Below, one piece after another: positions 4,571 to 24,099 of a DNA stretch of 50,971 nucleotides. The notes beneath the pieces were generated by a model. The model saw only the letters and a program-made list of their open reading frames with translations, was not told the DNA's origin and made no database searches. The DNA is from Escherichia phage herni. The stretch lies in sequence record NC_049823.1; one strand, written 5' to 3'. The number at the start of each line of letters is the position of its first letter. The stretch's first letter is position 1. Both the position numbers and the translations under genes were made by a program.

Positions 4571-4616
4571 ATAGCATTTTTTGTTAAACGATGATTTAAT
4601 GATTGTGTATTATACA
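4571..4616 (+). promoter_or_regulatory. conserved intergenic motif copy (ATAGCATTTTTTGTTAAA) plus ATTATA hexamer 22 nt downstream
   Basis: Matches the repeated motif; co-oriented with the helicase gene. Confidence 0.4.
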
Positions 4617-4646
4617 CACCAAATGGCATTACTCAAAGGTTTTAGA

Positions 4647-6686
4647 ATGATTCCAAACATTGAAAAGCAAATATCAGCACTTGGTGAAGCGGTAATTAAA
4701 TCCATTCAGGAGCGATTCACTGTTGGAGAGATTGTGCCTTACCCTTACCAGTGCGTTGCATACGCTGAGATCGCAAAGCGTATGAAAAATTATGAGCATC
4801 CATTCTTTGTTAAAGCGTCCGTATCGGCTGGCAAAACATTGATGTTTGCAATGGTTGCTCACCAGTGCCGGAAAATGGGCTTGAAAATGATGGTCCTTGC
4901 TCGCCAGGCTGAGATTGTGGATCAGGATTCTGAAGAGATAACAAATATTGGTGTGCCGAACTCCATCTATTGTGCAGGACTGAAGACAAAAAGCGCATAC
5001 TTTCCGATCGTTGTTGGTTCTGAGGGAACTGTAGTTAATGGACTGTTTAAAGCGCTTGGCGACTATGTTCCGCACGTTATCGGGATTGACGAGTGTCACC
5101 AGGTGGATTGGGAAGACCTTGCCGACGCAATAGAGAAAGACGAATCATTTTTACAAATGACGACGAAGAAAGGCGAAAAAGTACCAAATCCAGATTATGA
5201 CATAACGAGCGATAACGAATGCGAAGAGTTCCTGATTGGTGAGGATGGCTTACCAATGGAGGGAACAGGCCGCACGCAATACACTGTTATTATCATGGAA
5301 ATGATGCGACGTTGCAGGAAAGCATATGGTCATGAACTGCGCATCTTTGGTATGACTGGTTCGGAGTTTCGCGGAGTAGTCCCGATCCTAGTAGAAGACA
5401 AAAAACAGAAAGGATTCTGGCGTGAACAGGTTACTAATATTGACACCAACTACCTGATCAAATTCGGTTCTGTTGTGCCAACAAATTTTGGCGACGTTGG
5501 CGATCTAGGGTATGACCTTTCAGAGTTTGAGGCATCCAGCGAGGATGGCGTCGCAGACTTTGACGCTAAAACGCTTCGCAGGATGGAACAAAAAATTCAT
5601 GAAGAAGCGACCATGACAAAGCGCATCATGGCGAAAGTTCACGAGATCTGTAAAAACCGTAACGGCGTACTTGTGACATGTGCAGGAGAAAGGCATTGCA
5701 AAGAGGCAGCGGCGGCATTGCCACCTGGAACGACTTACAGGATCATTACTGGTAAGACTGGCGACAACCAGCGCAAGGAGTGGTTGAGGGAAGCATACGA
5801 AGGGAAGGTAAAATACATCTTCCAGGTTCAGGCGCTAACTACTGGCGTTAACGTGCCGTTTTGGGATACGTCTGTTATTCTGCGTAAGATTGGATCGCTA
5901 ACTTTGCTGATTCAGCTTTTAGGACGCGGAATGCGACTTCTTAAGAAATGGCATAAGGAACAAGGCTTCAAGAAAGATGATCACCTGGTTATGGATTTTT
6001 CAGGAACGATGGACGAGTTAGGTGAGCTTTATTTTGATCCGATACTGGAACAGGCGCAACATCAGAAGCGATTCAGGAACGGTAAAGATCCGAAGCCTTG
6101 TCCTGTTTGCGGAACTCTTAATAGCTATTATGCTCGTCGTTGTATGCACGTAGACGAAAACGGCAACAGATGCGAGTGGTTCTTTAAATTCAGGACATGT
6201 GATGATCAGATTGACACGCGCACTAAAAAGATTATTCAGCGCGGTTGTGGAACGAAAAATGATATTGCGGCCAGGGTATGCAGACATTGCGACATGTCAT
6301 TGATTGACCCTAACGAGAAGTTAAGCGGAAAGCACTACACAAAAAACGACTGGTTTCAGGTGCAATCTTTCTCGGTTGACATGACGAAAAACCAGAAAGG
6401 GATAATATTTAATTATGAGCTTTCCGATGGCATAGACACTTTCAGGGCGAGAGAGATATTTTTCCCTGAATCTGAGAGCCAAATTTGCCGCGCAAAATGG
6501 CGAAGCGTTGCTCTTAAGCACATACCAGATCGCCGTGTTGCTGGCATGGTGGCGAGCTATCGTAATGCACGTAAAATCATGCAATATGTGAATCACATCA
6601 TGCCACCATCGCGTGTAACTCACCGCAAGACTAGCAAGGGTGAAGATAATTTGTACAAGAAGGACTTTAATTATGGCAATGACTGA
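4647..6686 (+). CDS. superfamily 2 DNA helicase with C-terminal zinc-ribbon region
   Basis: Walker A SVSAGKT, DExH box IDECHQ, C-terminal CxxC pairs; start ambiguous (ATG 4623 with no Shine-Dalgarno, or ATG 4647 with AAAGG; track start TTG 4581 lies inside the upstream motif). Confidence 0.7.
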   Translation: MIPNIEKQISALGEAVIKSIQERFTVGEIVPYPYQCVAYAEIAKRMKNYEHPFFVKASVSAGKTLMFAMVAHQCRKMGLKMMVLARQAEIVDQDSEEITNIGVPNSIYCAGLKTKSAYFPIVVGSEGTVVNGLFKALGDYVPHVIGIDECHQVDWEDLADAIEKDESFLQMTTKKGEKVPNPDYDITSDNECEEFLIGEDGLPMEGTGRTQYTVIIMEMMRRCRKAYGHELRIFGMTGSEFRGVVPILVEDKKQKGFWREQVTNIDTNYLIKFGSVVPTNFGDVGDLGYDLSEFEASSEDGVADFDAKTLRRMEQKIHEEATMTKRIMAKVHEICKNRNGVLVTCAGERHCKEAAAALPPGTTYRIITGKTGDNQRKEWLREAYEGKVKYIFQVQALTTGVNVPFWDTSVILRKIGSLTLLIQLLGRGMRLLKKWHKEQGFKKDDHLVMDFSGTMDELGELYFDPILEQAQHQKRFRNGKDPKPCPVCGTLNSYYARRCMHVDENGNRCEWFFKFRTCDDQIDTRTKKIIQRGCGTKNDIAARVCRHCDMSLIDPNEKLSGKHYTKNDWFQVQSFSVDMTKNQKGIIFNYELSDGIDTFRAREIFFPESESQICRAKWRSVALKHIPDRRVAGMVASYRNARKIMQYVNHIMPPSRVTHRKTSKGEDNLYKKDFNYGND

Positions 6687-7092
6687 TAAAGGCGATTATC
6701 TGGAGTTTTACGAAAGAGATCCGACGGATACGCTAAAAGAGGAATCACACCAGATCGGGGCGTTTCAATGGTTGACTTATGCTTACCCTGAATTGCTGGC
6801 ATGGCATACGAAAAACGAGGGCGACAAGGGGATCGCCACCGCAATGATGGATCAGCAAGCCGGACTCGTTAAGGGCGTAAGTGATTTTATCATCCTGATT
6901 GGATTAAAAGGCCGTTATCCGTTTGCAGCAATTGAGATGAAGCGCGTCAATAAGTCTGGAAAGGGTAAGGCTTCACCAGTCAGTAAGGAGCAAAAAGCCT
7001 TCTTACGACGTGTGCGCGAGCTTGGCGGATTCGCTGCCGTAACATACGGATATAAGCAATTCATGATCGCTGTAGAATACATGATGAAATAG
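6673..7092 (+). CDS. VRR-NUC domain nuclease
   Basis: PD-(D/E)XK-like core GVSDFIIL...IEMK; start at MAMTDKG (AAGGA Shine-Dalgarno) overlaps the helicase stop. Confidence 0.55.
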   Translation: MAMTDKGDYLEFYERDPTDTLKEESHQIGAFQWLTYAYPELLAWHTKNEGDKGIATAMMDQQAGLVKGVSDFIILIGLKGRYPFAAIEMKRVNKSGKGKASPVSKEQKAFLRRVRELGGFAAVTYGYKQFMIAVEYMMK

Positions 7093-7132
7093 CACTTTTT
7101 GTTAAAACAGGCGCGAAGGATTGCGCCATAAT
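7087..7132 (+). promoter_or_regulatory. conserved intergenic motif AAATAGCACTTTTTGTTAAAAC, hairpin GGCGC-n8-GCGCC, CATAAT
   Basis: Motif contains the TAG stop of the upstream gene; ATAAT-like hexamer lies about 35 nt upstream of the Dam gene start. Confidence 0.45.
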
Positions 7133-7166
7133 AACACCAGTTCAACAAGCAACAGGTAATTAAGAA

Positions 7167-7868
7167 ATGATCAAAGAAACCGAAGTGACATTTGAACAAA
7201 TCGAACGAGAAACATTCATTGGCAATGCTCTTGCTACCGGAGGCTATTACCAGGCTGTTAAACCAAATCAATATTATAAAGTCACTGGCAACCGCTATAA
7301 CGGCAGCAATACGCCGGACGTTGTGCGAGATTTGTGGTCTACGCCGTCTGAGCTTGTCGCATGGATGGAAATCGAATACGGTGATTATGACATCGACGCT
7401 GCGGCAAGCAAAGAAAATGCTGTATGTGAAAAATTCTACAGCAAGGAAACAAATTGCTTAAAGCGTTGGTGGGGTAGTAATAAGCATATCTGGCTGAATC
7501 CACCGTACAGCAATATAACGCCTTTCGTTAAGAAAGCGATTGAGCAAATGGAGCACAATAACCAGATCGACATTCTGTTACCTTGCGACACATCGACAGG
7601 ATGGTTTTATGAGGCACAACAGAAAGCAGCGGAAATAATCTGGATCACTGGCGAAGTTTACCAGGAGGAAGGAATAGAATATTCCAGAACTGGACGGCTT
7701 GCTTTCACTTCAGCGCTTACAGGTAAACCAGTGCAGGGAAACAACAAAGGAAGCGTTATTTTCATCATGCGCGAACTTAAAGAAGGTGAGCAGCAGAAAA
7801 CTCGATACGTTAAGATCAGCGACATTTGCCCGTCAGTGGCAGAGCGTCGAGCAAGAAAGCGGAGTTAA
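7167..7868 (+). CDS. dam: phage Dam-type DNA N6-adenine methyltransferase
   Basis: WLNPPYS catalytic motif (NPPY) and overall phage Dam-family layout; AGGTAA Shine-Dalgarno. Confidence 0.75.
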   Translation: MIKETEVTFEQIERETFIGNALATGGYYQAVKPNQYYKVTGNRYNGSNTPDVVRDLWSTPSELVAWMEIEYGDYDIDAAASKENAVCEKFYSKETNCLKRWWGSNKHIWLNPPYSNITPFVKKAIEQMEHNNQIDILLPCDTSTGWFYEAQQKAAEIIWITGEVYQEEGIEYSRTGRLAFTSALTGKPVQGNNKGSVIFIMRELKEGEQQKTRYVKISDICPSVAERRARKRS

Positions 7869-13470: not shown

Positions 13471-13524
13471 GATGATAACTCCTTTTTTTGATGCGGCAAT
13501 AATACCGCACCAATGCTACCCGCA

Positions 13525-13544
13525 TTTAACAAAAAATGCTATTT
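13525..13544 (-). promoter_or_regulatory. conserved intergenic motif (minus orientation)
   Basis: TTTAACAAAAAATGCTATTT; contains the TAG stop of the gene ending at 13539. Confidence 0.4.
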
Positions 13545-13760
13545 GATCCGCTCTATGCTAACTAAGATTTTTTCTGGTTCCCTTGCGCTATGGCAATGCG
13601 CGGTTACGGAATCAGCAAAATCAAAATAAAGTGATTTGTGGTAAGAAAGACCAATCAGCCATCCAACCATCGTTTTCTTTATTGGCCTGACTATATCGCC
13701 AGGCTTGAAGGTTTTTGTTGCTGAATGAGTCACCTTATAGCGATATTCAGCCTTGATCAC
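13539..13760 (-). CDS. hypothetical protein (73 aa)
   Basis: ORF track; start overlaps the upstream stop. Confidence 0.45.
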   Translation of the reverse strand: MIKAEYRYKVTHSATKTFKPGDIVRPIKKTMVGWLIGLSYHKSLYFDFADSVTAHCHSAREPEKILVSIERIK

Positions 13761-14143
13761 TTATACATAGCCTCAAATAAATGACAGCCACCAGCGGAAA
13801 ATCCTACTTCTTCGCGGTATAGCGTCCAGCGGTCGCCAGCTTCATCAAAAACATAACCAGCAACAGCACCAAGCGCGCGACCTTGCTCAATCTGGTAGCG
13901 CTTTCCTTCTTTGAAATGCTTTTTGCACGGGATCTTGTGATCTACAAATGTGCATTTAATTGTTTTTGTCTTGATATGACGATAGTCAGACTCAACAGCG
14001 TTTTGCCACTTGCTACCCTTTGTAATGCTCTTTACCTGGAATTGTTCCAACTCGATCACATCATCGCTACCAGCAATTTTTTCGTATACAGCTTTATAAC
14101 GACCGTTCATCAAAACGTTGGTTTTATTGCAGATAACTTTCAT
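13757..14143 (-). CDS. hypothetical protein (128 aa)
   Basis: ORF track; AAGGAGA Shine-Dalgarno upstream of ATG 14143. Confidence 0.5.
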   Translation of the reverse strand: MKVICNKTNVLMNGRYKAVYEKIAGSDDVIELEQFQVKSITKGSKWQNAVESDYRHIKTKTIKCTFVDHKIPCKKHFKEGKRYQIEQGRALGAVAGYVFDEAGDRWTLYREEVGFSAGGCHLFEAMYK

Positions 14144-14199
14144 CGTTTATTTCTCCTTTCGTTTCGGTGAAGTGATTATGCCAGGCTTTTACACCTGGC

Positions 14200-14220
14200 T
14201 TTTAACAAAAAGTGCTATTT
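14200..14220 (-). promoter_or_regulatory. conserved intergenic motif (minus orientation) with hairpin GCCAGG-n7-CCTGGC and ATAAT
   Basis: TTTTAACAAAAAGTGCTATTT; contains the stop of the methyltransferase gene. Confidence 0.45.
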
Positions 14221-14925
14221 TGCGTTTGCTTCAAAGACGGCGCGAGCAAAACCGCGCGGTGTGAGGGAGCGGATCATCTTTGTGCGAGACGATTTTCCGC
14301 CAGTTTTGGCCCAACCAGGATTATCCTTGTCGCCATCTTTAGGAATGATTGTTGCGCGCGGAGGAATAACAAATCCGTTTCCAGTCCAAAGGCATGTTTT
14401 CTTAAAGTACCGATCCCGTGCCGGAATAATATCAGGAAAGTCGGGATGTTTATCATCTTCCGGCAGATAGCCAGCATAATCGCACGGATGGAACGTATAA
14501 TCAGGCTTGCGCCATAGCGTTGACAGCTTGCCTACAGGATTCTCTATCATGTACGGAACACCGAAATAATCAGCAATTTGCGCCGCTATTTTGCAAGTGT
14601 CGGCGGCTTCATCCTGGAACGATGGATTCTCAATGCGTTTTTTAGCCCAATGGCGAGATCCGCTATTTGCAAGGTCAGTGCATGGAGGGAACGCCATAAT
14701 AAAATCAGGCTTACCCCAATTTTCAAGTTTTGCGGTATATTTGAATAGATCATCAATCCACGCGTTAACGTAAAAGATATTGTCATGGATTATGCGCACT
14801 GAGTGGTAATCACCGTGATCAGCATCATCGTAATTAAAGCAAATGCATTTATATCCAGCATCAGCCCAATCTTTAACGGCTTTACCAGATCCATCAAACA
14901 AAGAGAAAATTAAACCCTTATACAT
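14215..14925 (-). CDS. putative DNA cytosine-5 methyltransferase
   Basis: Motif I-like FSLFDGSG, motif IV-like FPPCTDLANSG (PC dipeptide), motif VI-like IENPVG; GAGGTGA Shine-Dalgarno. Confidence 0.55.
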   Translation of the reverse strand: MYKGLIFSLFDGSGKAVKDWADAGYKCICFNYDDADHGDYHSVRIIHDNIFYVNAWIDDLFKYTAKLENWGKPDFIMAFPPCTDLANSGSRHWAKKRIENPSFQDEAADTCKIAAQIADYFGVPYMIENPVGKLSTLWRKPDYTFHPCDYAGYLPEDDKHPDFPDIIPARDRYFKKTCLWTGNGFVIPPRATIIPKDGDKDNPGWAKTGGKSSRTKMIRSLTPRGFARAVFEANAK

Positions 14926-14934
14926 TTCATCACC

Positions 14935-15159
14935 TCAAAACGGAAAGCATCGCGGACAGTTAGGATCAAAATTGCAGCCGCAATCATTAACAATCATCGT
15001 TGGATCTGCAAATGCAGCACCGCATTCATGTTCCATATCCATTTCACCCAACGCATCATCAAGTGTCCTGATCTTATATGCAACTTCAAGAGCAGCCTCT
15101 TTATTCAGCCCAGCATCTTCCGCTTTTTGCAGTCGCTCAAAAAATCCGTCCTGGCTCAT
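14935..15159 (-). CDS. small Cys-rich hypothetical protein (possible zinc binding)
   Basis: ORF track; C-terminal CGCNFDPNCPRC cluster. Confidence 0.45.
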   Translation of the reverse strand: MSQDGFFERLQKAEDAGLNKEAALEVAYKIRTLDDALGEMDMEHECGAAFADPTMIVNDCGCNFDPNCPRCFPF

Positions 15160-15269
15160 TTCATAAGCTCCTTGATAACAATCAGAATAGTAGCAATAAC
15201 AGCAGTGACAACTAAAAGACCAGCAAGGCTCATCATCACACCAAATAAAATATCAAGAAATTTCGTCAT
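15156..15269 (-). CDS. possible 37-aa single-pass membrane protein
   Basis: MTKFLDILFGVMMSLAGLLVVTAVIATILIVIKELMK; AGGTGA Shine-Dalgarno; stop overlaps the next start (ATGA). Confidence 0.35.
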   Translation of the reverse strand: MTKFLDILFGVMMSLAGLLVVTAVIATILIVIKELMK

Positions 15270-15315
15270 TATTATCACCTTTATTTAAAGGGAGGCGAAA
15301 CCTCCCGTTTATTAA

Positions 15316-15543
15316 TTAGATAGCCTTCCAACTTTCAATGAACATGCTGTTCTCTTCAAGAAGTTTAATCAATTCTTCGCGCGTATATTTGCGGATTTTA
15401 CTACCTGGATGCGAGCCAACAACAAACACACCTTTACCGCTCGTGATTGTTAACTGGTTGATTCCGCAAGATTTATCCATCTTAATGGCGACGCGGTGAT
15501 GTGCATCAACAGTGTGCATGATGTTAGTGATTTTGGCTTTCAT
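15316..15543 (-). CDS. hypothetical protein (75 aa)
   Basis: ORF track; GAGGAT Shine-Dalgarno. Confidence 0.5.
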   Translation of the reverse strand: MKAKITNIMHTVDAHHRVAIKMDKSCGINQLTITSGKGVFVVGSHPGSKIRKYTREELIKLLEENSMFIESWKAI

Positions 15544-15717
15544 TATGCAATCCTCATTATATTTGGTGTGGTAACTATATCAGGTTTGAGAAATATTGTT
15601 TAGCAATTTGTGCTATCAGTTGAAATAGCTATGGCGATTTGCTCGCTTTCCGTCTCCGCCATAATGATCATTAGAAACGGGAATCATCCAGGAATTATGA
15701 AATATTATTAGTCTCAT

Positions 15718-19600: not shown

Positions 19601-20548
19601 ATGTTAAAACTTGCTGACATTAAATTCCCGATCACCTTCGAATCTCGCGGCGTTGGTCATTTCATGTTTACCGACGAGAATACATGCACTAAGTTTAACG
19701 AATACGGAAATCCAGACGCTTCAACAATGGAGATTGAACACTTCATTGATGCGCATAACAAGCATTACAATTCGCTAAAAGACTACGGCTATGCAATGCC
19801 AGGATACACCTGTTTTCACTACAAGCAATATAAAGGCCAGGTGTTACCAATGCGCGCACAGGACATTGCGAGCGCTGCGACTTATGCGCGGGCAATTCAC
19901 GCGCCAGAGAATGCAGAGCCACTAGTAAAAATGCACGCCTGCGACTACAAAAAATTGTGGTGCTTAAGTGTGGATAACATCAAGTATCCGATCGTATTCC
20001 GCACGGTTGGTAACTCAACGATTCGCTATACGTCACCAGACAACGGCGTTTATAGCGATGGTACGAAATCAGAGTTGAAAGTTGATTTCTTTGTCAATGG
20101 TCACAACAAATTCAATCCACACAATGAAGAAGATAAGGTGTACTACGTGGAAGACATTACAAAACACTTGTTTGGGGAAACACCATTCGGCGGCGGAAAA
20201 ACGTCAATTCAAAAAATCATTGGCGATGAGATCCACAAGGCAGCCGTTGAAATGAAAGCGCCTGGAGGCTGTAAGATTGATAAAAGCGACCTTATCACCA
20301 TTCGTTCAAAGATTGGCGGAGTTGAATACGAGGGAAAAATTGAAAAAATGCCGCTCGGCGCTTCAATCATCGGCATCAAAGACGACAACGGCGATTGGCA
20401 TGATGTTTCTTTCCCGATCAAGCGTATCGAAGTGCTAGACGACTTGATTTGCCTCCTGGCGCATCATGGCAGCTATAAGAACAATCCGTTCTCCGCAGAG
20501 CTAAACATTAAGCGCGGAACGATGGTTAAGTGGAAGGTGAAAGTGTAA
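19601..20548 (+). CDS. hypothetical protein (315 aa)
   Basis: ORF track; AGGAGA Shine-Dalgarno; no family recognised. Confidence 0.6.
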   Translation: MLKLADIKFPITFESRGVGHFMFTDENTCTKFNEYGNPDASTMEIEHFIDAHNKHYNSLKDYGYAMPGYTCFHYKQYKGQVLPMRAQDIASAATYARAIHAPENAEPLVKMHACDYKKLWCLSVDNIKYPIVFRTVGNSTIRYTSPDNGVYSDGTKSELKVDFFVNGHNKFNPHNEEDKVYYVEDITKHLFGETPFGGGKTSIQKIIGDEIHKAAVEMKAPGGCKIDKSDLITIRSKIGGVEYEGKIEKMPLGASIIGIKDDNGDWHDVSFPIKRIEVLDDLICLLAHHGSYKNNPFSAELNIKRGTMVKWKVKV

Positions 20549-20592
20549 ATAGCACGAATTGTTAAAACTCAAATGTGGGGCCAAGTATAATG
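20547..20592 (+). promoter_or_regulatory. conserved intergenic motif variant AAATAGCACGAATTGTTAAAAC with TATAAT
   Basis: Motif copy; TATAAT 21 nt after TTGTTA. Confidence 0.45.
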
Positions 20593-20621
20593 GCCTCACT
20601 TTCAACGAAGGAGATAAAACT

Positions 20622-20852
20622 ATGTACATTAACAAGAAGATGAAATGCATTTCCGTTAACTATGGTTGCTCTGGCATGTTCAAGCCTGGCGAAATCTATA
20701 TGGCGCAAAAGTTGAAATCATCAACCGGATCTTTTTGCGTGAGCAATAGTAAGGGGAATCGCATGTTCCTGAACGGTGGCGAGGGAACTAAGGTTATGGC
20801 ACACGCTATGGTAATTGCTGAATTTGAAGAGGTGAAAGATGGAAACAAATAA
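20622..20852 (+). CDS. hypothetical protein (76 aa)
   Basis: Start at MYINKK with AAGGAGA Shine-Dalgarno; the track start 20559 reads through the motif. Confidence 0.5.
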   Translation: MYINKKMKCISVNYGCSGMFKPGEIYMAQKLKSSTGSFCVSNSKGNRMFLNGGEGTKVMAHAMVIAEFEEVKDGNK

Positions 20853-21060
20853 GCGCGTTAAGCACAAGTTTATTGATAATCATCGCGATGCACTTGAGGT
20901 ATATAAGTTCGGCGATCGCGTGTTTATTGATGGCACGTTTGAAGGTGGGCGCAGGCCGGATTTTAGGTCGATACTAACCATTGACCAGGTGCGCAAGCTG
21001 GCGGATAAGTTAAATGATCTGGCAGATGAAATCGAATACAAGCAAATTCATTTTAATTGA
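20839..21060 (+). CDS. hypothetical protein (73 aa)
   Basis: ORF track; GAGGTGA Shine-Dalgarno. Confidence 0.5.
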   Translation: METNKRVKHKFIDNHRDALEVYKFGDRVFIDGTFEGGRRPDFRSILTIDQVRKLADKLNDLADEIEYKQIHFN

Positions 21061-21071
21061 TAGGTTTGATA

Positions 21072-21785
21072 ATGAAAAAATACGAATTTGAACTTTGGGG
21101 CAGCAAATACCATTTTTCCACGAGCAAGCCGATTGTTATCGTTGACCTGGACGGAACGTTATCAGACGGAACGCATCGCTTGCACCTGCTTCCGACAGAA
21201 GATTTGCACCTTACAGAAAGCTGGTCTGAGTTCAATAAGGCGGCTGTTGGCGATTCGCCGATTAAGAGCACGGTTGCAGTGGTTAACGGTTTGTGGATGT
21301 CTGGATTTGCCATCGTTATCCTGACCGGACGCAGCGATGAAGTGATGGAGGACACCTGCAAATGGCTTAACGAAAACGGCATCAAGTACGATGCGTTAAT
21401 CATGCGCCGCAAGGAAGACAACCGCAAAGACACAATCATCAAAGAAGAAGTCTTGCGCGCTATCGGACTGGAAAACATTGTGTGCGCTTTTGATGATTCG
21501 CCGAACGTGGTTAAGCACTTCCGCAGCCTGGGAATCACAACCTATCAGGTCACGGAATACGACAAGCCACATAGTCACATCCAATCGCACGGCGTTGAAG
21601 CAATCAAGATCACGAAGCGCGCCCGATTCGTTGGCAGCAAAGACAGCCTTGTGAATTCCAGCTTTACTAGAGGAATAACCTATGACGTTGTTTCTTATCA
21701 TGACAAGAGCTTTATAGTTCATGATGATTCTGGATGCGCCTGGTCATTCGATCATAGTGACGGCGATTTTGTTAATGCTGAATAG
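21072..21785 (+). CDS. HAD-superfamily phosphatase (Pnk-phosphatase or nucleotidase-like)
   Basis: HAD motif I VIVDLDGTLSD near N-terminus; start at MKKYEF (ATG 21072), the track start 21057 is TTG. Confidence 0.55.
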   Translation: MKKYEFELWGSKYHFSTSKPIVIVDLDGTLSDGTHRLHLLPTEDLHLTESWSEFNKAAVGDSPIKSTVAVVNGLWMSGFAIVILTGRSDEVMEDTCKWLNENGIKYDALIMRRKEDNRKDTIIKEEVLRAIGLENIVCAFDDSPNVVKHFRSLGITTYQVTEYDKPHSHIQSHGVEAIKITKRARFVGSKDSLVNSSFTRGITYDVVSYHDKSFIVHDDSGCAWSFDHSDGDFVNAE

Positions 21786-21826
21786 CACTTTTTGCAAAAA
21801 CAGATTATCGGGCTTGCGGTATAGTA
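21781..21826 (+). promoter_or_regulatory. conserved intergenic motif variant AATAGCACTTTTTGCAAAAAC, hairpin CGGGCTT-n10-AAGCCC
   Basis: Motif copy containing the upstream stop. Confidence 0.4.
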
Positions 21827-21856
21827 AGCCCATCGACAACAAACGAGGATTAAATC

Positions 21857-22120
21857 ATGGCTAACAAGATCGAGTTTTTTAAAGCGGTAGACAAGATTGA
21901 TGGCGCGTCAAGTTTCTTTGCTATCCAGTCAATTGACGGTGAGGATATTGGGCACAACGTTATCCTTAGCGATGGAGGATTAGAACTTAGTGACTTGGTA
22001 GGTCGAGTTGTGTCATACGGTAAATGTTTACACCCAGATTCGAAACTAGAGCCGCGACGCAGCGACATGCAAAATCCAGTTCTGCTTTACACTCTGGTAA
22101 TTGAAGGAGTCAACAAATGA
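21857..22120 (+). CDS. hypothetical protein (87 aa)
   Basis: ORF track; GAGGAT Shine-Dalgarno. Confidence 0.5.
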   Translation: MANKIEFFKAVDKIDGASSFFAIQSIDGEDIGHNVILSDGGLELSDLVGRVVSYGKCLHPDSKLEPRRSDMQNPVLLYTLVIEGVNK

Positions 22121-22302
22121 TTTGGTTACTTGTATTTTTAGTGGTTTTCTTTTATATTTCAGGCTTATTCATCTTCCGCGCGCTGGTGAAAACATGCGAT
22201 TGCACGGATAAAGATCAGCCTCTTGTTCTGATGTTCTGGTTTGTGTGGTTTTGGGTGGCGCTTTATCAGATTGTGAGCGAAAAAAGCGGCTTTAAGTGGT
22301 GA
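22117..22302 (+). CDS. small membrane protein (61 aa)
   Basis: Two hydrophobic helices (LLVFLVVFFYISGLFIF and LVLMFWFVWFWVALYQI). Confidence 0.5.
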   Translation: MIWLLVFLVVFFYISGLFIFRALVKTCDCTDKDQPLVLMFWFVWFWVALYQIVSEKSGFKW

Positions 22303-22357
22303 TTCTTACTATAGCGCATTCACGCAGTGCGCTATGTTGAGATAACAACATGAGATC

Positions 22358-22495
22358 ATGAAGATGCGAAACTTCGAAAAAATCGTATCCAAAAAGAAGC
22401 GATACAGCTACCACGAGCACCAAGAGATGAATCAACGCTATCGCAAGAAGCGCCAGCGCCCAGGTAAACATTCAAGCCGATATGGAGAAAACTAA
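22358..22495 (+). CDS. possible 45-aa highly basic protein
   Basis: MKMRNFEKIVSKKKRYSYHEHQEMNQRYRKKRQRPGKHSSRYGEN; weak Shine-Dalgarno. Confidence 0.2.
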   Translation: MKMRNFEKIVSKKKRYSYHEHQEMNQRYRKKRQRPGKHSSRYGEN

Positions 22496-22496
22496 T

Positions 22497-23087
22497 ATGA
22501 AGCGAGACATTATCATCCTTAACGGACCGCCAGGAGTTGGCAAGGATACGCTTGCGGCATACTTAACGGGACATCGTTACGCAGCCGTTAAAGCGTCGTT
22601 TAAACAGCCTATGTTTGATATTGCATTCTCCATGCTTGGCGTTTACCGATATGACGAGTTCATTGATCTGTATAACGACCGCGAGCAGAAAGAAAAGCCT
22701 CAAGCAATCTTGCAAGGCAAGTCGCCTCGCCAGTTCATGATCTGGATTAGCGAAGAAATTATGAAGCCAGCTTTTGGCGAGCAATATTTCGGAAATCGCA
22801 TGGTTGAGCAAGTACACGAGATGTACAGGGATTTAGCTGTTGTAATTAGTGATGGTGGATTCCCTGAAGAAATCAAGCCGCTCGTTAAGGCAGGCCATGA
22901 AGTTCACATTTGCCGACTGCATCGCGAGGGATTCACGTTTGATGGAGATTCGCGAAACTATATTGACCTGAGCGGATACCATCACCGCGTCAAGCATTAC
23001 GACTTCACAATGATTGATGGCGATCCGGAAAAGACTGTTAACGAGATCATTAAATCGGTCCAGTGGAAACACATTAAAATCGAATAG
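22497..23087 (+). CDS. P-loop kinase, deoxynucleoside monophosphate kinase-like
   Basis: Walker A ILNGPPGVGKDT (GKDT as in phage dNMP kinases); start at MKRDII with GGAGA Shine-Dalgarno. Confidence 0.55.
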   Translation: MKRDIIILNGPPGVGKDTLAAYLTGHRYAAVKASFKQPMFDIAFSMLGVYRYDEFIDLYNDREQKEKPQAILQGKSPRQFMIWISEEIMKPAFGEQYFGNRMVEQVHEMYRDLAVVISDGGFPEEIKPLVKAGHEVHICRLHREGFTFDGDSRNYIDLSGYHHRVKHYDFTMIDGDPEKTVNEIIKSVQWKHIKIE

Positions 23088-23130
23088 CACGAATTGCTAA
23101 ACTCGTGGCGCAATGCCTCGCTATAATGCA
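23086..23130 (+). promoter_or_regulatory. conserved intergenic motif variant AATAGCACGAATTGCTAAAC with TATAAT
   Basis: Motif copy containing the TAG stop of the kinase gene. Confidence 0.45.
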
Positions 23131-23158
23131 AACACCAATCAACGAGAGGGCTTGAAAC

Positions 23159-23560
23159 ATGTTAGAACTTAAAGACATTCGCGTTGGAACAAAATTTCGC
23201 GTAACCTGGGCAGATGAATATTGCGGAGTTAGTAAGGGCCAGGTTGTTACGGTGGATAGTATTTATCGCGGGTGCAGCAAAGACTTTCGCCGACCACGCA
23301 TCAAGAATGGCTATATCATAACTCGCCGTCTTGGATTTGATCATTATTGCGTAGTGGCTACTCAAGGAGTTTTGATTGAGCTTGAGCGAATAAGCGATCA
23401 TCGCGGCTGTCATGTTAAGACAATGAAAATACCATTTCAGCGAGCGCGATACGATGCGCGACGTATGCGCAGACTTGCGCGAAATGCGATCAAGTTCAAA
23501 AAGCCTGATAATGTTCTTTACGGCATGTACAAGGGGATTGCGCGAAATGCTGGGAAATAA
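23159..23560 (+). CDS. hypothetical protein (133 aa, basic C-terminus)
   Basis: ORF track; GAGAGG Shine-Dalgarno. Confidence 0.5.
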   Translation: MLELKDIRVGTKFRVTWADEYCGVSKGQVVTVDSIYRGCSKDFRRPRIKNGYIITRRLGFDHYCVVATQGVLIELERISDHRGCHVKTMKIPFQRARYDARRMRRLARNAIKFKKPDNVLYGMYKGIARNAGK

Positions 23561-23678
23561 CAACAATGCAACCAATCCAAAGCCGCCATTTGATTTTCAT
23601 GAAATCATGATTGTGTTATTCTTGATTCTCTTAGTTATTTATTCAGTGAGGGCCGCACTATGGTTTTTAACGCACTAA
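23550..23678 (+). CDS. possible 42-aa membrane peptide
   Basis: MLGNNNNATNPKPPFDFHEIMIVLFLILLVIYSVRAALWFLTH. Confidence 0.3.
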   Translation: MGNNNNATNPKPPFDFHEIMIVLFLILLVIYSVRAALWFLTH

Positions 23679-23923
23679 AACGAATCTTTAAACCTGAATG
23701 CCGGATCGTTTCTTGCACAGAATGCAAGATTTATTACCTGCAACGCCGCCGCGTTATCAGTGGAGATTGGGAATATCTGACGGATGACGCTTTCGGCTTT
23801 TGGGCTATGGAGTTCAATAGCTACAGCGAAGCGCGCGAATACGCTAAAAAGTTGCACAAGTTACGACCTTACAAACTGCGTTTGCTGGTTGTCAAAAAGT
23901 GCGACGTATGGGATCACGTATGA
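23660..23923 (+). CDS. hypothetical protein (87 aa)
   Basis: ORF track. Confidence 0.45.
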   Translation: MVFNALKRIFKPECRIVSCTECKIYYLQRRRVISGDWEYLTDDAFGFWAMEFNSYSEAREYAKKLHKLRPYKLRLLVVKKCDVWDHV

Positions 23924-24099
23924 AAAGAGTGATTATCACCTTTATTGCACTTATCGCTGGTTGCTACCTGGCTTATGGATATAGCGGCATTGTTGAGTCA
24001 ATCGGCGGATTGATTATCTTCATGGCTGGCGGATATGCTGGCTATGGTGACGGATTCAAAGACGGTAAGCGATACATGCTGACCGGGAAAAAGAAGTAA
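23920..24099 (+). CDS. small membrane protein (59 aa)
   Basis: Start at MKRVIITF overlapping the upstream stop; two Gly-rich hydrophobic helices. Confidence 0.4.
   Translation: MKRVIITFIALIAGCYLAYGYSGIVESIGGLIIFMAGGYAGYGDGFKDGKRYMLTGKKK

What the first reader, a model, noticed from the sequence alone, without database searches (positions are those of the whole stretch)
14215..14925. Putative C5 cytosine methyltransferase in the leftward early block, in addition to a Dam-type enzyme
The phage encodes a Dam-like N6-adenine methyltransferase (7167-7868) and a second enzyme with C5-methyltransferase-like motifs (FDGSG, PC dipeptide in FPPCTDLANSG, ENPVG). Two orphan methyltransferases with no cognate nuclease suggest broad anti-restriction protection. 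The C5 assignment rests on short motifs only and the protein is short (236 aa) for a canonical Dcm.
Basis: partly seen in the sequence, partly recalled or inferred. Interest (0 to 1): 0.5.

Follow-up and report, generated by a model that had tools for sequence, protein, structure and literature searches.

The report
Known phage Dcm-like cytosine methyltransferase
The gene is a real but already annotated small phage enzyme that methylates cytosine in DNA, and a 96%-identical copy in a sister phage has been shown experimentally to make 5-methylcytosine and to trigger the bacterial retron Ec86 defence, so the finding is correct but ordinary.

Summary
The ORF at 14215-14925 (minus strand, 236 aa) exists as described, and FDGSG, FPPCTDLANSG and ENPVG are all present. 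The window is a T1-like coliphage (Hanrivervirus, Drexlerviridae); this region is 99.8% identical to phage vB_EcoS_G29-2, where the gene is annotated "DNA methyltransferase". BASEL phages call it "Dcm-like C5 cytosine methyltransferase".

Sequence profiles are weak: Pfam PF00145 scores 12 bits against a cut-off of 22, and there is no similarity to E. coli Dcm. Other evidence is clear:
- Cys82 is invariant in 81 homologues.
- The protein is 96% identical to the KarlJaspers enzyme. The Dcm of K42, a KarlJaspers strain, was shown by Wang et al. (2023/2024) to put 5mC on retron Ec86 msDNA and to trigger that defence.

A new indirect clue comes from a Nanopore-only assembly of the sister phage 2019SD1. 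It miscalls 84 of 84 aligned CCWGG sites, against 24% of all 5-mers. That is the known footprint of Dcm-type 5mC.

The Dam-type enzyme (7167-7868) and the orphan status are confirmed. "Broad" anti-restriction is not supported: protection covers at most two motifs, and the rest of the genome relies on palindrome avoidance. Novelty: already known.

The parts
14215..14925 (-). Coding sequence of the 236-aa Dcm-like DNA C5-cytosine methyltransferase (orthologue of G29-2 gp76, BASEL bas06_0055 and bas07_0054, and the K42 Dcm)
14884..14898 (-). Motif I, FDGSG (aa 10-14), the SAM-binding glycine loop after strand beta-1
   Evidence: Sequence. hhalign and HMMER place it on FAGLGG of M.HhaI, FSGAGG of M.HaeIII and FDGIAT of DNMT3B. 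F10, D11, G12 and G14 are conserved among close homologues.
14659..14691 (-). Motif IV, FPPCTDLANSG (aa 79-89). The catalytic nucleophile Cys82 is encoded at 14680-14682
   Evidence: Sequence. C82 is invariant in 81 diverse homologues. It aligns with the PC of M.HhaI, M.HaeIII and DNMT3B. C82 is one of the four residues changed in the inactive mutant of the K42 enzyme.
14530..14544 (-). Motif VI, ENPVG (aa 128-132), with the Glu that protonates cytosine N3 in canonical enzymes
   Evidence: E128 and N129 are at least 90% conserved and P130 is invariant. The segment aligns with ENV of canonical enzymes. E128 was changed in the K42 inactive mutant.
14386..14415 (-). Position of motif VIII, DRYFKKTCLW (aa 171-180). 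A non-canonical D-x-Y-x-K-K replaces QxRxR and leads into strand 177-182
   Evidence: D171, K175, T177 and W180 are at least 90% conserved and Y173 is invariant. The strand is seen in the model. K175 and K176 were treated as substrate-binding residues and mutated in the K42 enzyme. The equivalence to motif VIII is inferred from strand order, not from a residue-level structural alignment.
14236..14271 (-). Motif IX-like C-terminal segment, RSLTPRGFARAV (aa 219-230). The protein ends 6 residues later, with no canonical motif X (GNxVxxP)
   Evidence: BLASTP aligns it locally with RRLTPRECARLM of E. coli Dcm, and hhalign with RKLHPRECARVM of M.HhaI. R219, S220, P223, G225 and A229 are at least 90% conserved.
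14933..14936 (-). Shine-Dalgarno GAGG of the methyltransferase gene, overlapping the TGA stop of the upstream 74-aa ORF
   Evidence: Sequence, conserved in KarlJaspers and JakobBernoulli. Two retron-escape mutants of phage K42 carried a base change 9 bp upstream of the dcm start codon. That position corresponds to window base 14934, inside this GAGG (inference).
14180..14199 (-). Hairpin GCCAGGU-GUAAAA-GCCUGGC, 16 nt after the stop codon, annotated as a terminator in G29-2. It is itself built from one CCAGG and one CCTGG site
   Evidence: Folding gives -13.7 kcal/mol, z = -2.2. G29-2 carries an ARNOLD terminator annotation at the matching position. The simple terminator scan did not call it because there is no T-run.
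7167..7868 (+). Second orphan methyltransferase: phage T1-type Dam (N6-adenine, GATC family), 233 aa
   Evidence: Pfam PF05869 at E = 6.4e-61. PADLOC oMTase at E = 6e-103. Annotated as Dam-like in G29-2 and in BASEL phages.

Best explanation
The ORF encodes a small, stand-alone, SAM-dependent DNA (cytosine-5) methyltransferase of the phage family phrog_757.

Mechanism (inferred from the fold, the conserved residues and a mutant of the K42 enzyme). The enzyme flips out a target cytosine. Cys82 of the FPPC loop attacks C6, Glu128 of ENP assists, and the methyl group of SAM is transferred to C5.

Target (probable, not proven for this enzyme). The target is most likely the inner cytosine of CCWGG, the same mark as host Dcm.

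Timing and role (inferred). Together with the phage Dam, it would fully methylate fast-replicating phage DNA that host enzymes would leave under-methylated. That protects CCWGG sites against EcoRII-type enzymes, and the CCWGG subset of CCNGG sites against SsoII/Ecl18kI-type enzymes. It does not create McrBC targets, because the methylated C is preceded by C.

Cost (shown for the K42 enzyme). The same activity methylates the msDNA of retron Ec86/Eco1 and sets off that abortive-infection system.
For: Fold and active site:
- AF2 model with pLDDT 95.2 and pTM 0.92.
- Foldseek matches DNMT3A/B at E about 4e-8.
- C82 is invariant, and P80, T83, E128, N129 and K175 are at least 90% conserved in 81 homologues of 33-87% identity.

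Experiment on a close orthologue:
- Our protein is 227/236 identical to KarlJaspers Bas06.
- In K42, a KarlJaspers strain, all four retron-escape mutants hit this 711-bp gene or its ribosome-binding site.
- Expression raised 5mC on msDNA by LC-MS, while the C82A/E128A/K175A/K176A mutant did not.
- Changing the msDNA CCTGG abolished defence. The work was published as Cell Rep 2024;43:114857 (reference seen).

Target motif, indirect:
- The Nanopore-only (R9.4, Albacore 2.3.1, Canu) assembly of Hanrivervirus 2019SD1 has 0 CCWGG in 50 kb.
- It miscalls 84/84 CCWGG sites aligned to this window, against 24% of all 5-mers and 21-27% of one-off motifs (Fisher p = 2e-52).
- Such miscalls are the documented signature of Dcm 5mC with those basecallers.
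- In the window, CCWGG (119 sites, O/E 1.01) and GATC (O/E 0.99) escape the avoidance that hits CCSGG (3 sites, O/E 0.25), GGWCC (0.43), GGCC (0.53) and 30 of 64 hexamer palindromes.

Orphan status: no restriction endonuclease is annotated in the reference genome.
Against: - Sequence profiles alone do not place it in the family. Pfam PF00145 gives E = 0.13 and 12.1 bits against a cut-off of 22. NCBIfam gives nothing. PDB profile searches give E of about 0.1 or worse.
- There is no canonical motif VIII (QxRxR) or motif X (GNxVxxP). Only about 36 residues lie between the motif VIII strand and motif IX, where M.HhaI has roughly 100 (my own estimate).
- CCWGG specificity was assumed from the name 'Dcm' in the K42 paper and was tested only through msDNA mutants, in a dcm+ host.
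- The Nanopore footprint cannot separate the phage enzyme from host Dcm, and 2019SD1 carries a diverged allele of the gene.
- Presence or absence of the gene across 118 related loci did not predict CCWGG avoidance. T1 and an Rtp-sized contig lack the gene and still do not avoid CCWGG.
- BASEL found no link between the methyltransferases and restriction resistance. The anti-restriction role is therefore inferred.
Confidence: 0.85

Rival explanations
1. It is a C5-methyltransferase, but its target is not (only) CCWGG. With its tiny recognition region it could be relaxed, for example CCNGG or CWG, or could prefer hairpin or single-stranded DNA such as msDNA. The CCWGG mark on virion DNA would then come from host Dcm.
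For: - There is no sequence similarity to E. coli Dcm (BLASTP E = 1.9).
- Only about 36 aa lie where a target-recognition domain normally sits.
- The K42 experiments were done in dcm+ MG1655, yet control msDNA had little 5mC. The phage enzyme therefore does something host Dcm does not.
- The specificity was assumed rather than mapped.
Against: - All three changes to the msDNA CCTGG (AATGG, ACTGG, CATGG) abolished triggering.
- The Nanopore footprint in 2019SD1 is confined to full CCWGG. One-off motifs, CWG and CCSGG are miscalled only at or below background rates.
- These phages were isolated on wild-type K-12, which carries McrBC (host field). Methylation in a purine-mC context would be restricted by McrBC (established knowledge).
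- CCSGG is almost purged from the genome, which would be unnecessary if it were protected.
Confidence: 0.12
2. Its main biological role is not classical anti-restriction. Possible alternatives are mimicry of the host 'self' mark against methylation-reading defences such as DISARM-type systems, or control of phage replication, packaging or gene expression. Restriction evasion would then be secondary.
For: - BASEL saw no pattern linking methyltransferase content to restriction resistance in Drexlerviridae.
- T1 and an Rtp-sized relative do without the gene.
- The family persists in more than 1,500 phage records although it is a trigger for retron Ec86.
- A review cited CCWGG methylation as the self mark of a DISARM system.
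Against: - No experiment or genomic association found here points to a specific alternative role.
- The gene has no conserved partner beyond lineage synteny. The upstream 74-aa ORF occurs in 447 records against 1,501 for the methyltransferase.
- GATC is depleted (23 against 52.5 expected) in the Rtp-sized contig, where no Dam was found in the locus. This fits the simple logic of methylate or avoid.
Confidence: 0.2
3. It transfers a group other than methyl, for example carboxymethyl from Cx-SAM like phage CmoX, as the first step of a hypermodification.
For: - E. coli makes Cx-SAM through its own CmoA, which can feed such an enzyme.
- The motif X asparagine that selects SAM in M.HhaI has no clear counterpart here.
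Against: - LC-MS on the K42 enzyme found 5mC.
- No cmoA or ligase gene is annotated in the reference genome, and six of its larger hypothetical proteins scanned against Pfam showed no methyltransferase-like or ligase domain.
- M.HhaI, DNMT3A/B and M.MpeI match equally well or better.
- The Nanopore miscalls match the known Dcm 5mC pattern.
Confidence: 0.03
4. It is an RNA (tRNA) C5-methyltransferase like DNMT2, or a degenerate inactive remnant.
For: - Pfam is below threshold and motif X is missing.
Against: - The catalytic residues are invariant over thousands of homologues.
- The K42 enzyme methylates DNA and needs its catalytic residues.
Confidence: 0.02

Closest known systems
Dcm of phage K42 / KarlJaspers (Hanrivervirus), the trigger of retron Ec86 (Eco1); Wang et al., bioRxiv 10.1101/2023.08.16.553469 and Cell Rep 2024;43:114857
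   Same: Same 711-bp gene at the same genomic position. The protein is 227/236 identical to the KarlJaspers Bas06 protein. C82, E128, K175 and K176 have the same numbering. The Shine-Dalgarno is the same one that the escape mutants hit.
   Different: There are nine substitutions relative to Bas06. The K42 sequence itself could not be retrieved here. The protein of this window has not been tested.
E. coli Dcm (M.EcoKDcm, 472 aa, CCWGG)
   Same: Same chemistry, and probably the same target and methylated base. It shares motifs I, IV and VI and an RxLTPR motif IX.
   Different: There is no significant sequence similarity (BLASTP E = 1.9). Our protein is half the size, with no N-terminal extension, no long recognition domain, no motif X and no vsr partner gene. 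The name 'Dcm-like' is functional and does not imply orthology.
Catalytic domains of DNMT3A/DNMT3B
   Different: Sequence identity is 15-16%. They are eukaryotic, CpG-specific, and act as DNMT3L-containing oligomers.
Type II C5-methyltransferases M.HhaI and M.HaeIII (Pfam PF00145)
   Different: PF00145 is below its gathering score. M.HhaI has roughly 100 residues between motifs VIII and IX (my own estimate) plus motif X, and belongs to a restriction-modification pair. This enzyme is an orphan.
Phage CmoX, DNA cytosine C5-carboxymethyltransferase (PDB 8yf3)
   Different: CmoX uses Cx-SAM through an Arg in place of the motif X Asn and is encoded next to cmoA and a ligase. None of that was found here, and the K42 enzyme gave 5mC.

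Membership tests
DNA (cytosine-5) methyltransferase superfamily (Pfam PF00145; ten-motif enzymes) | Motif I (FxGxG) SAM-binding loop | tested here: met
   F10-D-G12-S-G14. It aligns to FAGLGG, FSGAGG and FDGIAT of M.HhaI, M.HaeIII and DNMT3B. It follows strand 5-9 in the model.
DNA (cytosine-5) methyltransferase superfamily (Pfam PF00145; ten-motif enzymes) | Motif IV Pro-Cys with the catalytic cysteine | tested here: met
   P81-C82. C82 is invariant in 81 homologues and aligns with the PC of M.HhaI and DNMT3B.
DNA (cytosine-5) methyltransferase superfamily (Pfam PF00145; ten-motif enzymes) | Motif VI Glu-Asn-Val | tested here: met
   E128-N129-P130, with Pro in place of Val. E and N are at least 90% conserved and P is invariant. 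It aligns with ENV.
DNA (cytosine-5) methyltransferase superfamily (Pfam PF00145; ten-motif enzymes) | Motif VIII QxRxR | tested here: not met
   The strand in that position is preceded by D171-R-Y173-F-K175-K176 and not by QxRxR. Basic residues are present but the motif is not canonical.
DNA (cytosine-5) methyltransferase superfamily (Pfam PF00145; ten-motif enzymes) | Motif IX (RxLTxRE...) after a target-recognition region | tested here: met
   R219-S-L-T-P-R224 aligns with RRLTPRE of E. coli Dcm and RKLHPRE of M.HhaI. The region before it is only about 36 aa.
DNA (cytosine-5) methyltransferase superfamily (Pfam PF00145; ten-motif enzymes) | Motif X (GNxVxxP) C-terminal helix | tested here: not met
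   The protein ends 12 residues after R224 and no GN(S/A)V is present. Whether the terminal helix 224-234 takes the structural place of motif X could not be checked, because the fold tools return no residue-level alignment.
DNA (cytosine-5) methyltransferase superfamily (Pfam PF00145; ten-motif enzymes) | Score above the Pfam gathering threshold | tested here: not met
   12.1 bits against 22, E = 0.13, covering only aa 7-93. Only 5 of 81 family members reach E <= 0.01.
DNA (cytosine-5) methyltransferase superfamily (Pfam PF00145; ten-motif enzymes) | C5-MTase three-dimensional fold | tested here: met
DNA (cytosine-5) methyltransferase superfamily (Pfam PF00145; ten-motif enzymes) | Formation of 5-methylcytosine in DNA | not testable with these tools
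   Published for the Dcm of K42, a KarlJaspers strain: LC-MS with an inactive quadruple mutant; our protein is 96% identical to KarlJaspers Bas06. Indirect support comes from the CCWGG miscall footprint in a sister phage.
Phage family phrog_757 / K42-type 'Dcm' (retron Ec86 trigger) | Full-length match to the family profile and near-identity to the characterised enzyme's lineage | tested here: met
   phrog_757 at E = 8.5e-86 over aa 2-235. 96% identical to KarlJaspers Bas06. Same gene neighbourhood.
Phage family phrog_757 / K42-type 'Dcm' (retron Ec86 trigger) | Activation of retron Ec86/Eco1 by msDNA methylation | not testable with these tools
   Shown only for the K42 enzyme.
Orthologues of E. 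coli Dcm (CCWGG; dcm-vsr operon) | Sequence orthology to Dcm | tested here: not met
   BLASTP E = 1.9, with only a 12-residue motif IX patch aligning.
Orthologues of E. coli Dcm (CCWGG; dcm-vsr operon) | Linked vsr very-short-patch repair gene | tested here: not met
   dcm overlaps vsr in K-12. No Vsr is annotated in the reference phage genome.
Orthologues of E. coli Dcm (CCWGG; dcm-vsr operon) | CCWGG target specificity | tested here: inconclusive
   Supported indirectly. 84/84 CCWGG sites are miscalled in the ONT-only 2019SD1 assembly. CCWGG is not avoided in the window. The msDNA CCTGG is required for triggering. Host Dcm cannot be excluded as the source of the mark.
CmoX-type cytosine C5-carboxymethyltransferases | Neighbouring cmoA (Cx-SAM synthase) and Arg replacing the motif X Asn | tested here: not met
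   No cmoA or ligase is annotated, and six larger hypothetical proteins scanned against Pfam showed no methyltransferase-like or ligase domain. There is no motif X to carry the Arg.

The most novel reading that the evidence does not exclude
The enzyme reaches the same CCWGG target as host Dcm by convergence. It is a 236-aa minimal C5-methyltransferase that is structurally closest to DNMT3, has only about 36 residues where a recognition domain should be, and has no motif X. Its recognition element, perhaps the invariant insert at aa 146-176 (YGGYLPEDDKHPxFPDxIPARDAY), would then be unlike any solved one. It would be among the smallest sequence-specific DNA C5-methyltransferases, and it would copy the host's own mark.
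Probability: 0.4. Interest if true: 0.4.

Novelty: already known. Interest (0 to 1): 0.15.

Why it matters
For genome annotation it matters little. The gene is already labelled in GenBank and in the BASEL collection, and its lineage has a published function. Its wider relevance is also already described: phage orphan methyltransferases help evade restriction and can also be sensed by the host, as when retron Ec86 fires once its msDNA is methylated. What remains open is narrow. The target has never been mapped directly, and nobody knows how so small an enzyme, unrelated in sequence to Dcm, reads CCWGG. One practical by-product is that old Nanopore-only phage assemblies can be mined for methylation footprints.

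Tried and rejected
- Sequence-only family assignment gave nothing significant. This covers Pfam, NCBIfam, and HMMER against PDB with the single protein and with 20- and 81-sequence profiles. hhalign against M.HhaI alone aligned only motif IV. Against six canonical enzymes it gave E = 3e-4 with probability 39%.
- A residue-level structural alignment to settle motifs VIII and X was not possible, because the fold tools return summary scores only.
- The idea that the Cys-rich 74-aa upstream ORF (14935-15159) is a specificity partner was rejected. It is confined to Drexlerviridae-type genomes (447 records), while the methyltransferase is in 1,501 records from several phage groups.
- I tested whether phages lacking the gene avoid CCWGG, using 118 loci plus T1. 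The result was inconclusive. T1 and an Rtp-sized contig lack the gene and show no avoidance, and distant family members vary.
- Phage 2019SD1 at first looked like a natural specificity switch (0 CCWGG, normal CCSGG). This was rejected: it is a basecalling artefact of an unpolished Nanopore assembly that GenBank flags UNVERIFIED_ASMBLY. I reinterpreted it as a methylation footprint.
- The search for related loci with the 81-sequence alignment failed because it had no conserved stretch. The 20-sequence alignment worked.
- The Cell Reports version of the retron paper is not held, so I used the preprint.
- One similarity search was run on the wrong region by mistake. It showed only that window 20000-24000 is mosaic, at best 94% identical to any record.

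Full report
**Observation.** The window has an ATG-started ORF at 14215-14925 on the minus strand encoding 236 aa. FDGSG (aa 10-14), FPPCTDLANSG (aa 79-89, Cys82) and ENPVG (aa 128-132) are all there. A GAGG ribosome-binding site lies 8-11 nt upstream, overlaps the stop codon of a 74-aa ORF, and is conserved in sister phages. A hairpin follows the stop codon at 14180-14199.

**Identity of the window.** The region is 99.8% identical to Escherichia phage vB_EcoS_G29-2 and 99.7% identical to phage egaa. These are T1-like siphoviruses of the genus Hanrivervirus (Drexlerviridae, Tempevirinae). In G29-2 the gene is gp76, 'DNA methyltransferase'. In BASEL phages JakobBernoulli and KarlJaspers it is 'Dcm-like C5 cytosine methyltransferase'.

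**Is it really a C5-methyltransferase?**
- Sequence profiles are surprisingly weak. Pfam PF00145 gives 12.1 bits against a cut-off of 22, over the N-terminal third only. NCBIfam gives nothing. HMMER against all PDB sequences gives E of about 0.1-0.6, whether with the protein or with family profiles. There is no significant BLASTP similarity to E. coli Dcm.
- The phage-specific profile phrog_757 'DNA methyltransferase' matches at E = 8.5e-86.
- The family is large and uniformly short. It has 3,363 clusters at 90% identity and 1,270 representatives at 50% identity, is present in 1,501 of 50,697 phage records, and its members are mostly about 210-260 aa.
- In an alignment of 81 members down to 33% identity, Cys82 is invariant. 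Pro80, Thr83, Glu128, Asn129, Lys175, Arg219, Pro223 and Gly225 are at least 90% conserved.
- An AlphaFold2 model from that alignment is very confident (pLDDT 95.2, pTM 0.92).

**Anatomy.**
- Motifs I, IV and VI are canonical.
- The strand where motif VIII should lie (aa 177-182) is preceded by D-R-Y-F-K-K rather than QxRxR.
- Only about 36 residues separate it from R219-SLTPR, which aligns with the RxLTPRE of motif IX in Dcm and M.HhaI.
- The chain ends 12 residues after R224, with no GNxVxxP motif X.
- A highly conserved insert, YGGYLPEDDKHPxFPDxIPARDAY (aa 146-176), precedes the motif VIII strand.

**Experimental knowledge.**
- Wang et al. (bioRxiv 10.1101/2023.08.16.553469; published as Cell Rep 2024;43:114857, reference seen) selected mutants of phage K42, a KarlJaspers strain, that escape retron Ec86.
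- Expressing the gene was toxic only with the retron present, and it raised 5mC on msDNA by LC-MS.
- A C82A/E128A/K175A/K176A mutant was inert.
- Altering the CCTGG in the msDNA stem-loop abolished defence.
- Our protein has the same length and the same residue numbers, and is 227/236 identical to KarlJaspers Bas06. Position -9 falls in our GAGG at window base 14934.
- Later papers treat this as established.

**Target motif.** The K42 paper took CCWGG from the name 'Dcm' and worked in a dcm+ host, so the specificity is not formally mapped. I found two indirect lines of evidence.
- The window avoids palindromes strongly. Seventeen of 64 hexamer palindromes are absent and 30 have O/E below 0.5. 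CCSGG occurs 3 times (O/E 0.25), GGWCC has O/E 0.43 and GGCC 0.53. GATC (O/E 0.99) and CCWGG (119 sites, O/E 1.01) are not avoided.
- The sister Hanrivervirus 2019SD1 at first seemed to be a mirror image, with 0 CCWGG and normal CCSGG. Its genome was sequenced only on Nanopore R9.4 with Albacore 2.3.1 and Canu, without short-read polishing. GenBank flags it UNVERIFIED_ASMBLY.
- All 84 window CCWGG sites that align to 2019SD1 are miscalled there, typically CCAGG to CCGGG or CC-GG and CCTGG to CCCGG or CACGG. The background is 24.1% of all 5-mers and 21-27% of the one-off motifs CCWGH, DCWGG, CDWGG and CCWHG (Fisher p = 2e-52).
- Default ONT basecallers of that period are documented to miscall Dcm-methylated CCAGG and CCTGG in consensus sequences (Wick et al. 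2019).
- The simplest reading is that Hanrivervirus virion DNA is almost fully modified at CCWGG, and only there. The footprint cannot tell the phage enzyme from host Dcm. 2019SD1 carries a diverged copy of the gene that is broken by frameshift errors in the assembly.

**Context and role.**
- The Dam-type enzyme at 7167-7868 is confirmed.
- No restriction endonuclease is annotated in the reference genome. The nucleases present are of the recombination or repair kind: RecE-like exonuclease, VRR-NUC and a repair exonuclease. Both enzymes are therefore orphans.
- Anti-restriction is the natural inference. Methylating CCWGG blocks EcoRII-type enzymes without creating McrBC sites (established knowledge).
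- The role is unproven and narrow rather than broad. BASEL found no pattern linking methyltransferase content to restriction resistance.
- T1 itself lacks the gene.
- A survey of 118 related loci showed no clean relation between carrying the gene and CCWGG usage.
- The documented consequence of the activity is a cost, namely detection by retron Ec86.

**Rivals.**
- A different or relaxed specificity is possible, with probability about 0.12.
- A role other than restriction evasion has probability about 0.2.
- Carboxymethyl transfer like CmoX is unlikely. The K42 enzyme gave 5mC, and no cmoA or ligase gene was found.
- An RNA methyltransferase or a dead remnant is very unlikely.

**Verdict.** The gene is already annotated, and the Dcm of a near-identical phage lineage is already characterised, so novelty is 'already known' and interest is low. 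The remaining open points are the unmapped specificity and the way so small an enzyme, unrelated in sequence to Dcm, recognises its site.

Noticed in passing
L131 (MT360681.1 / NC_049820.1, Shigella phage 2019SD1) 1-50000; compared with the whole window: The public genome of this sister phage has no CCWGG site in 50 kb, and all 84 alignable CCWGG sites are miscalled. The assembly is Nanopore-only (Albacore 2.3.1, Canu), so this is a 5mC footprint and not biology. Its 53 CCSGG sites and several broken genes, including its methyltransferase and helicase, appear to be the same artefact. Old ONT-only phage assemblies could be mined this way for methylated motifs.
   Followed up: yes
whole window (1-50971): Restriction-site avoidance is strong and selective. 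CCSGG occurs 3 times against about 52 expected from composition. GGWCC occurs 9 times against 67. Seventeen of 64 hexamer palindromes are absent. GATC, CCWGG, GCGC and TGCA are not avoided. T1 does not avoid CCSGG (65 against 59). The cause of the CCSGG purge is not established; unprotected CCNGG- or CCSGG-type restriction is one possibility.
   Followed up: partly
L035 (46,219-bp contig, the size of phage Rtp), 14 kb: This relative has neither the C5 methyltransferase nor a Dam in the fetched locus. Its GATC count is less than half of expectation (23 against 52.5), whereas Dam-carrying relatives have GATC above expectation. This looks like a small natural example of 'methylate or avoid'.
   Followed up: no
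window 4581-7868 (+): Immediately upstream of Dam sit a 679-701-aa SF2 helicase whose Pfam hits are ResIII and Helicase_C, and a separate VRR-NUC nuclease. The order helicase, PD-(D/E)xK nuclease, adenine methyltransferase superficially recalls a type III restriction-modification layout. T1 has the same order of helicase, a small ORF and Dam. It is probably a replication or recombination module.
   Followed up: no
window 14935-15159 (-): A 74-aa Cys-rich ORF (…DCGCNFDPNCPRCFPF) ends inside the methyltransferase's ribosome-binding site. It has no Pfam match and is found in 447 phage records, which appear to be all T1-like genomes of about 50 kb. It looks like lineage synteny rather than a partner of the enzyme.
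   Followed up: partly
window 14180-14199 (-): The hairpin after the methyltransferase gene is formed by a CCAGG site pairing with a CCTGG site, so both arms carry the enzyme's presumed target. It has no T-run and is only a weak terminator candidate.
   Followed up: partly
phage collection hits: About 20 records named 'Campylobacter phage' (for example A14a and A123, host Campylobacter jejuni) are 80-96% identical at the protein level to this E. coli T1-like phage. Their names or host assignments look doubtful.
   Followed up: no
BFVD hits (A0A6J5SE15, 1,397 aa; A0A6J5NPY6, 1,126 aa): The same minimal methyltransferase fold (28-30% identity) occurs as a domain of very large proteins in uncultured phages. 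One of them is annotated Helicase/UvrB N-terminal.
   Followed up: no
window 20000-24000: This part of the window is only 92-94% identical to any phage record, G29-2 included, whereas 13500-15600 is 99.8% identical to G29-2. The genome is a mosaic and not simply a G29-2 isolate.
   Followed up: no
L115-L124 and many Drexlerviridae loci: GGWCC is completely absent (0 against 23-44 expected) from many Klebsiella- and E. coli-type T1-like loci. This suggests strong pressure from SinI/Eco47I-type (GGWCC) restriction.
   Followed up: no
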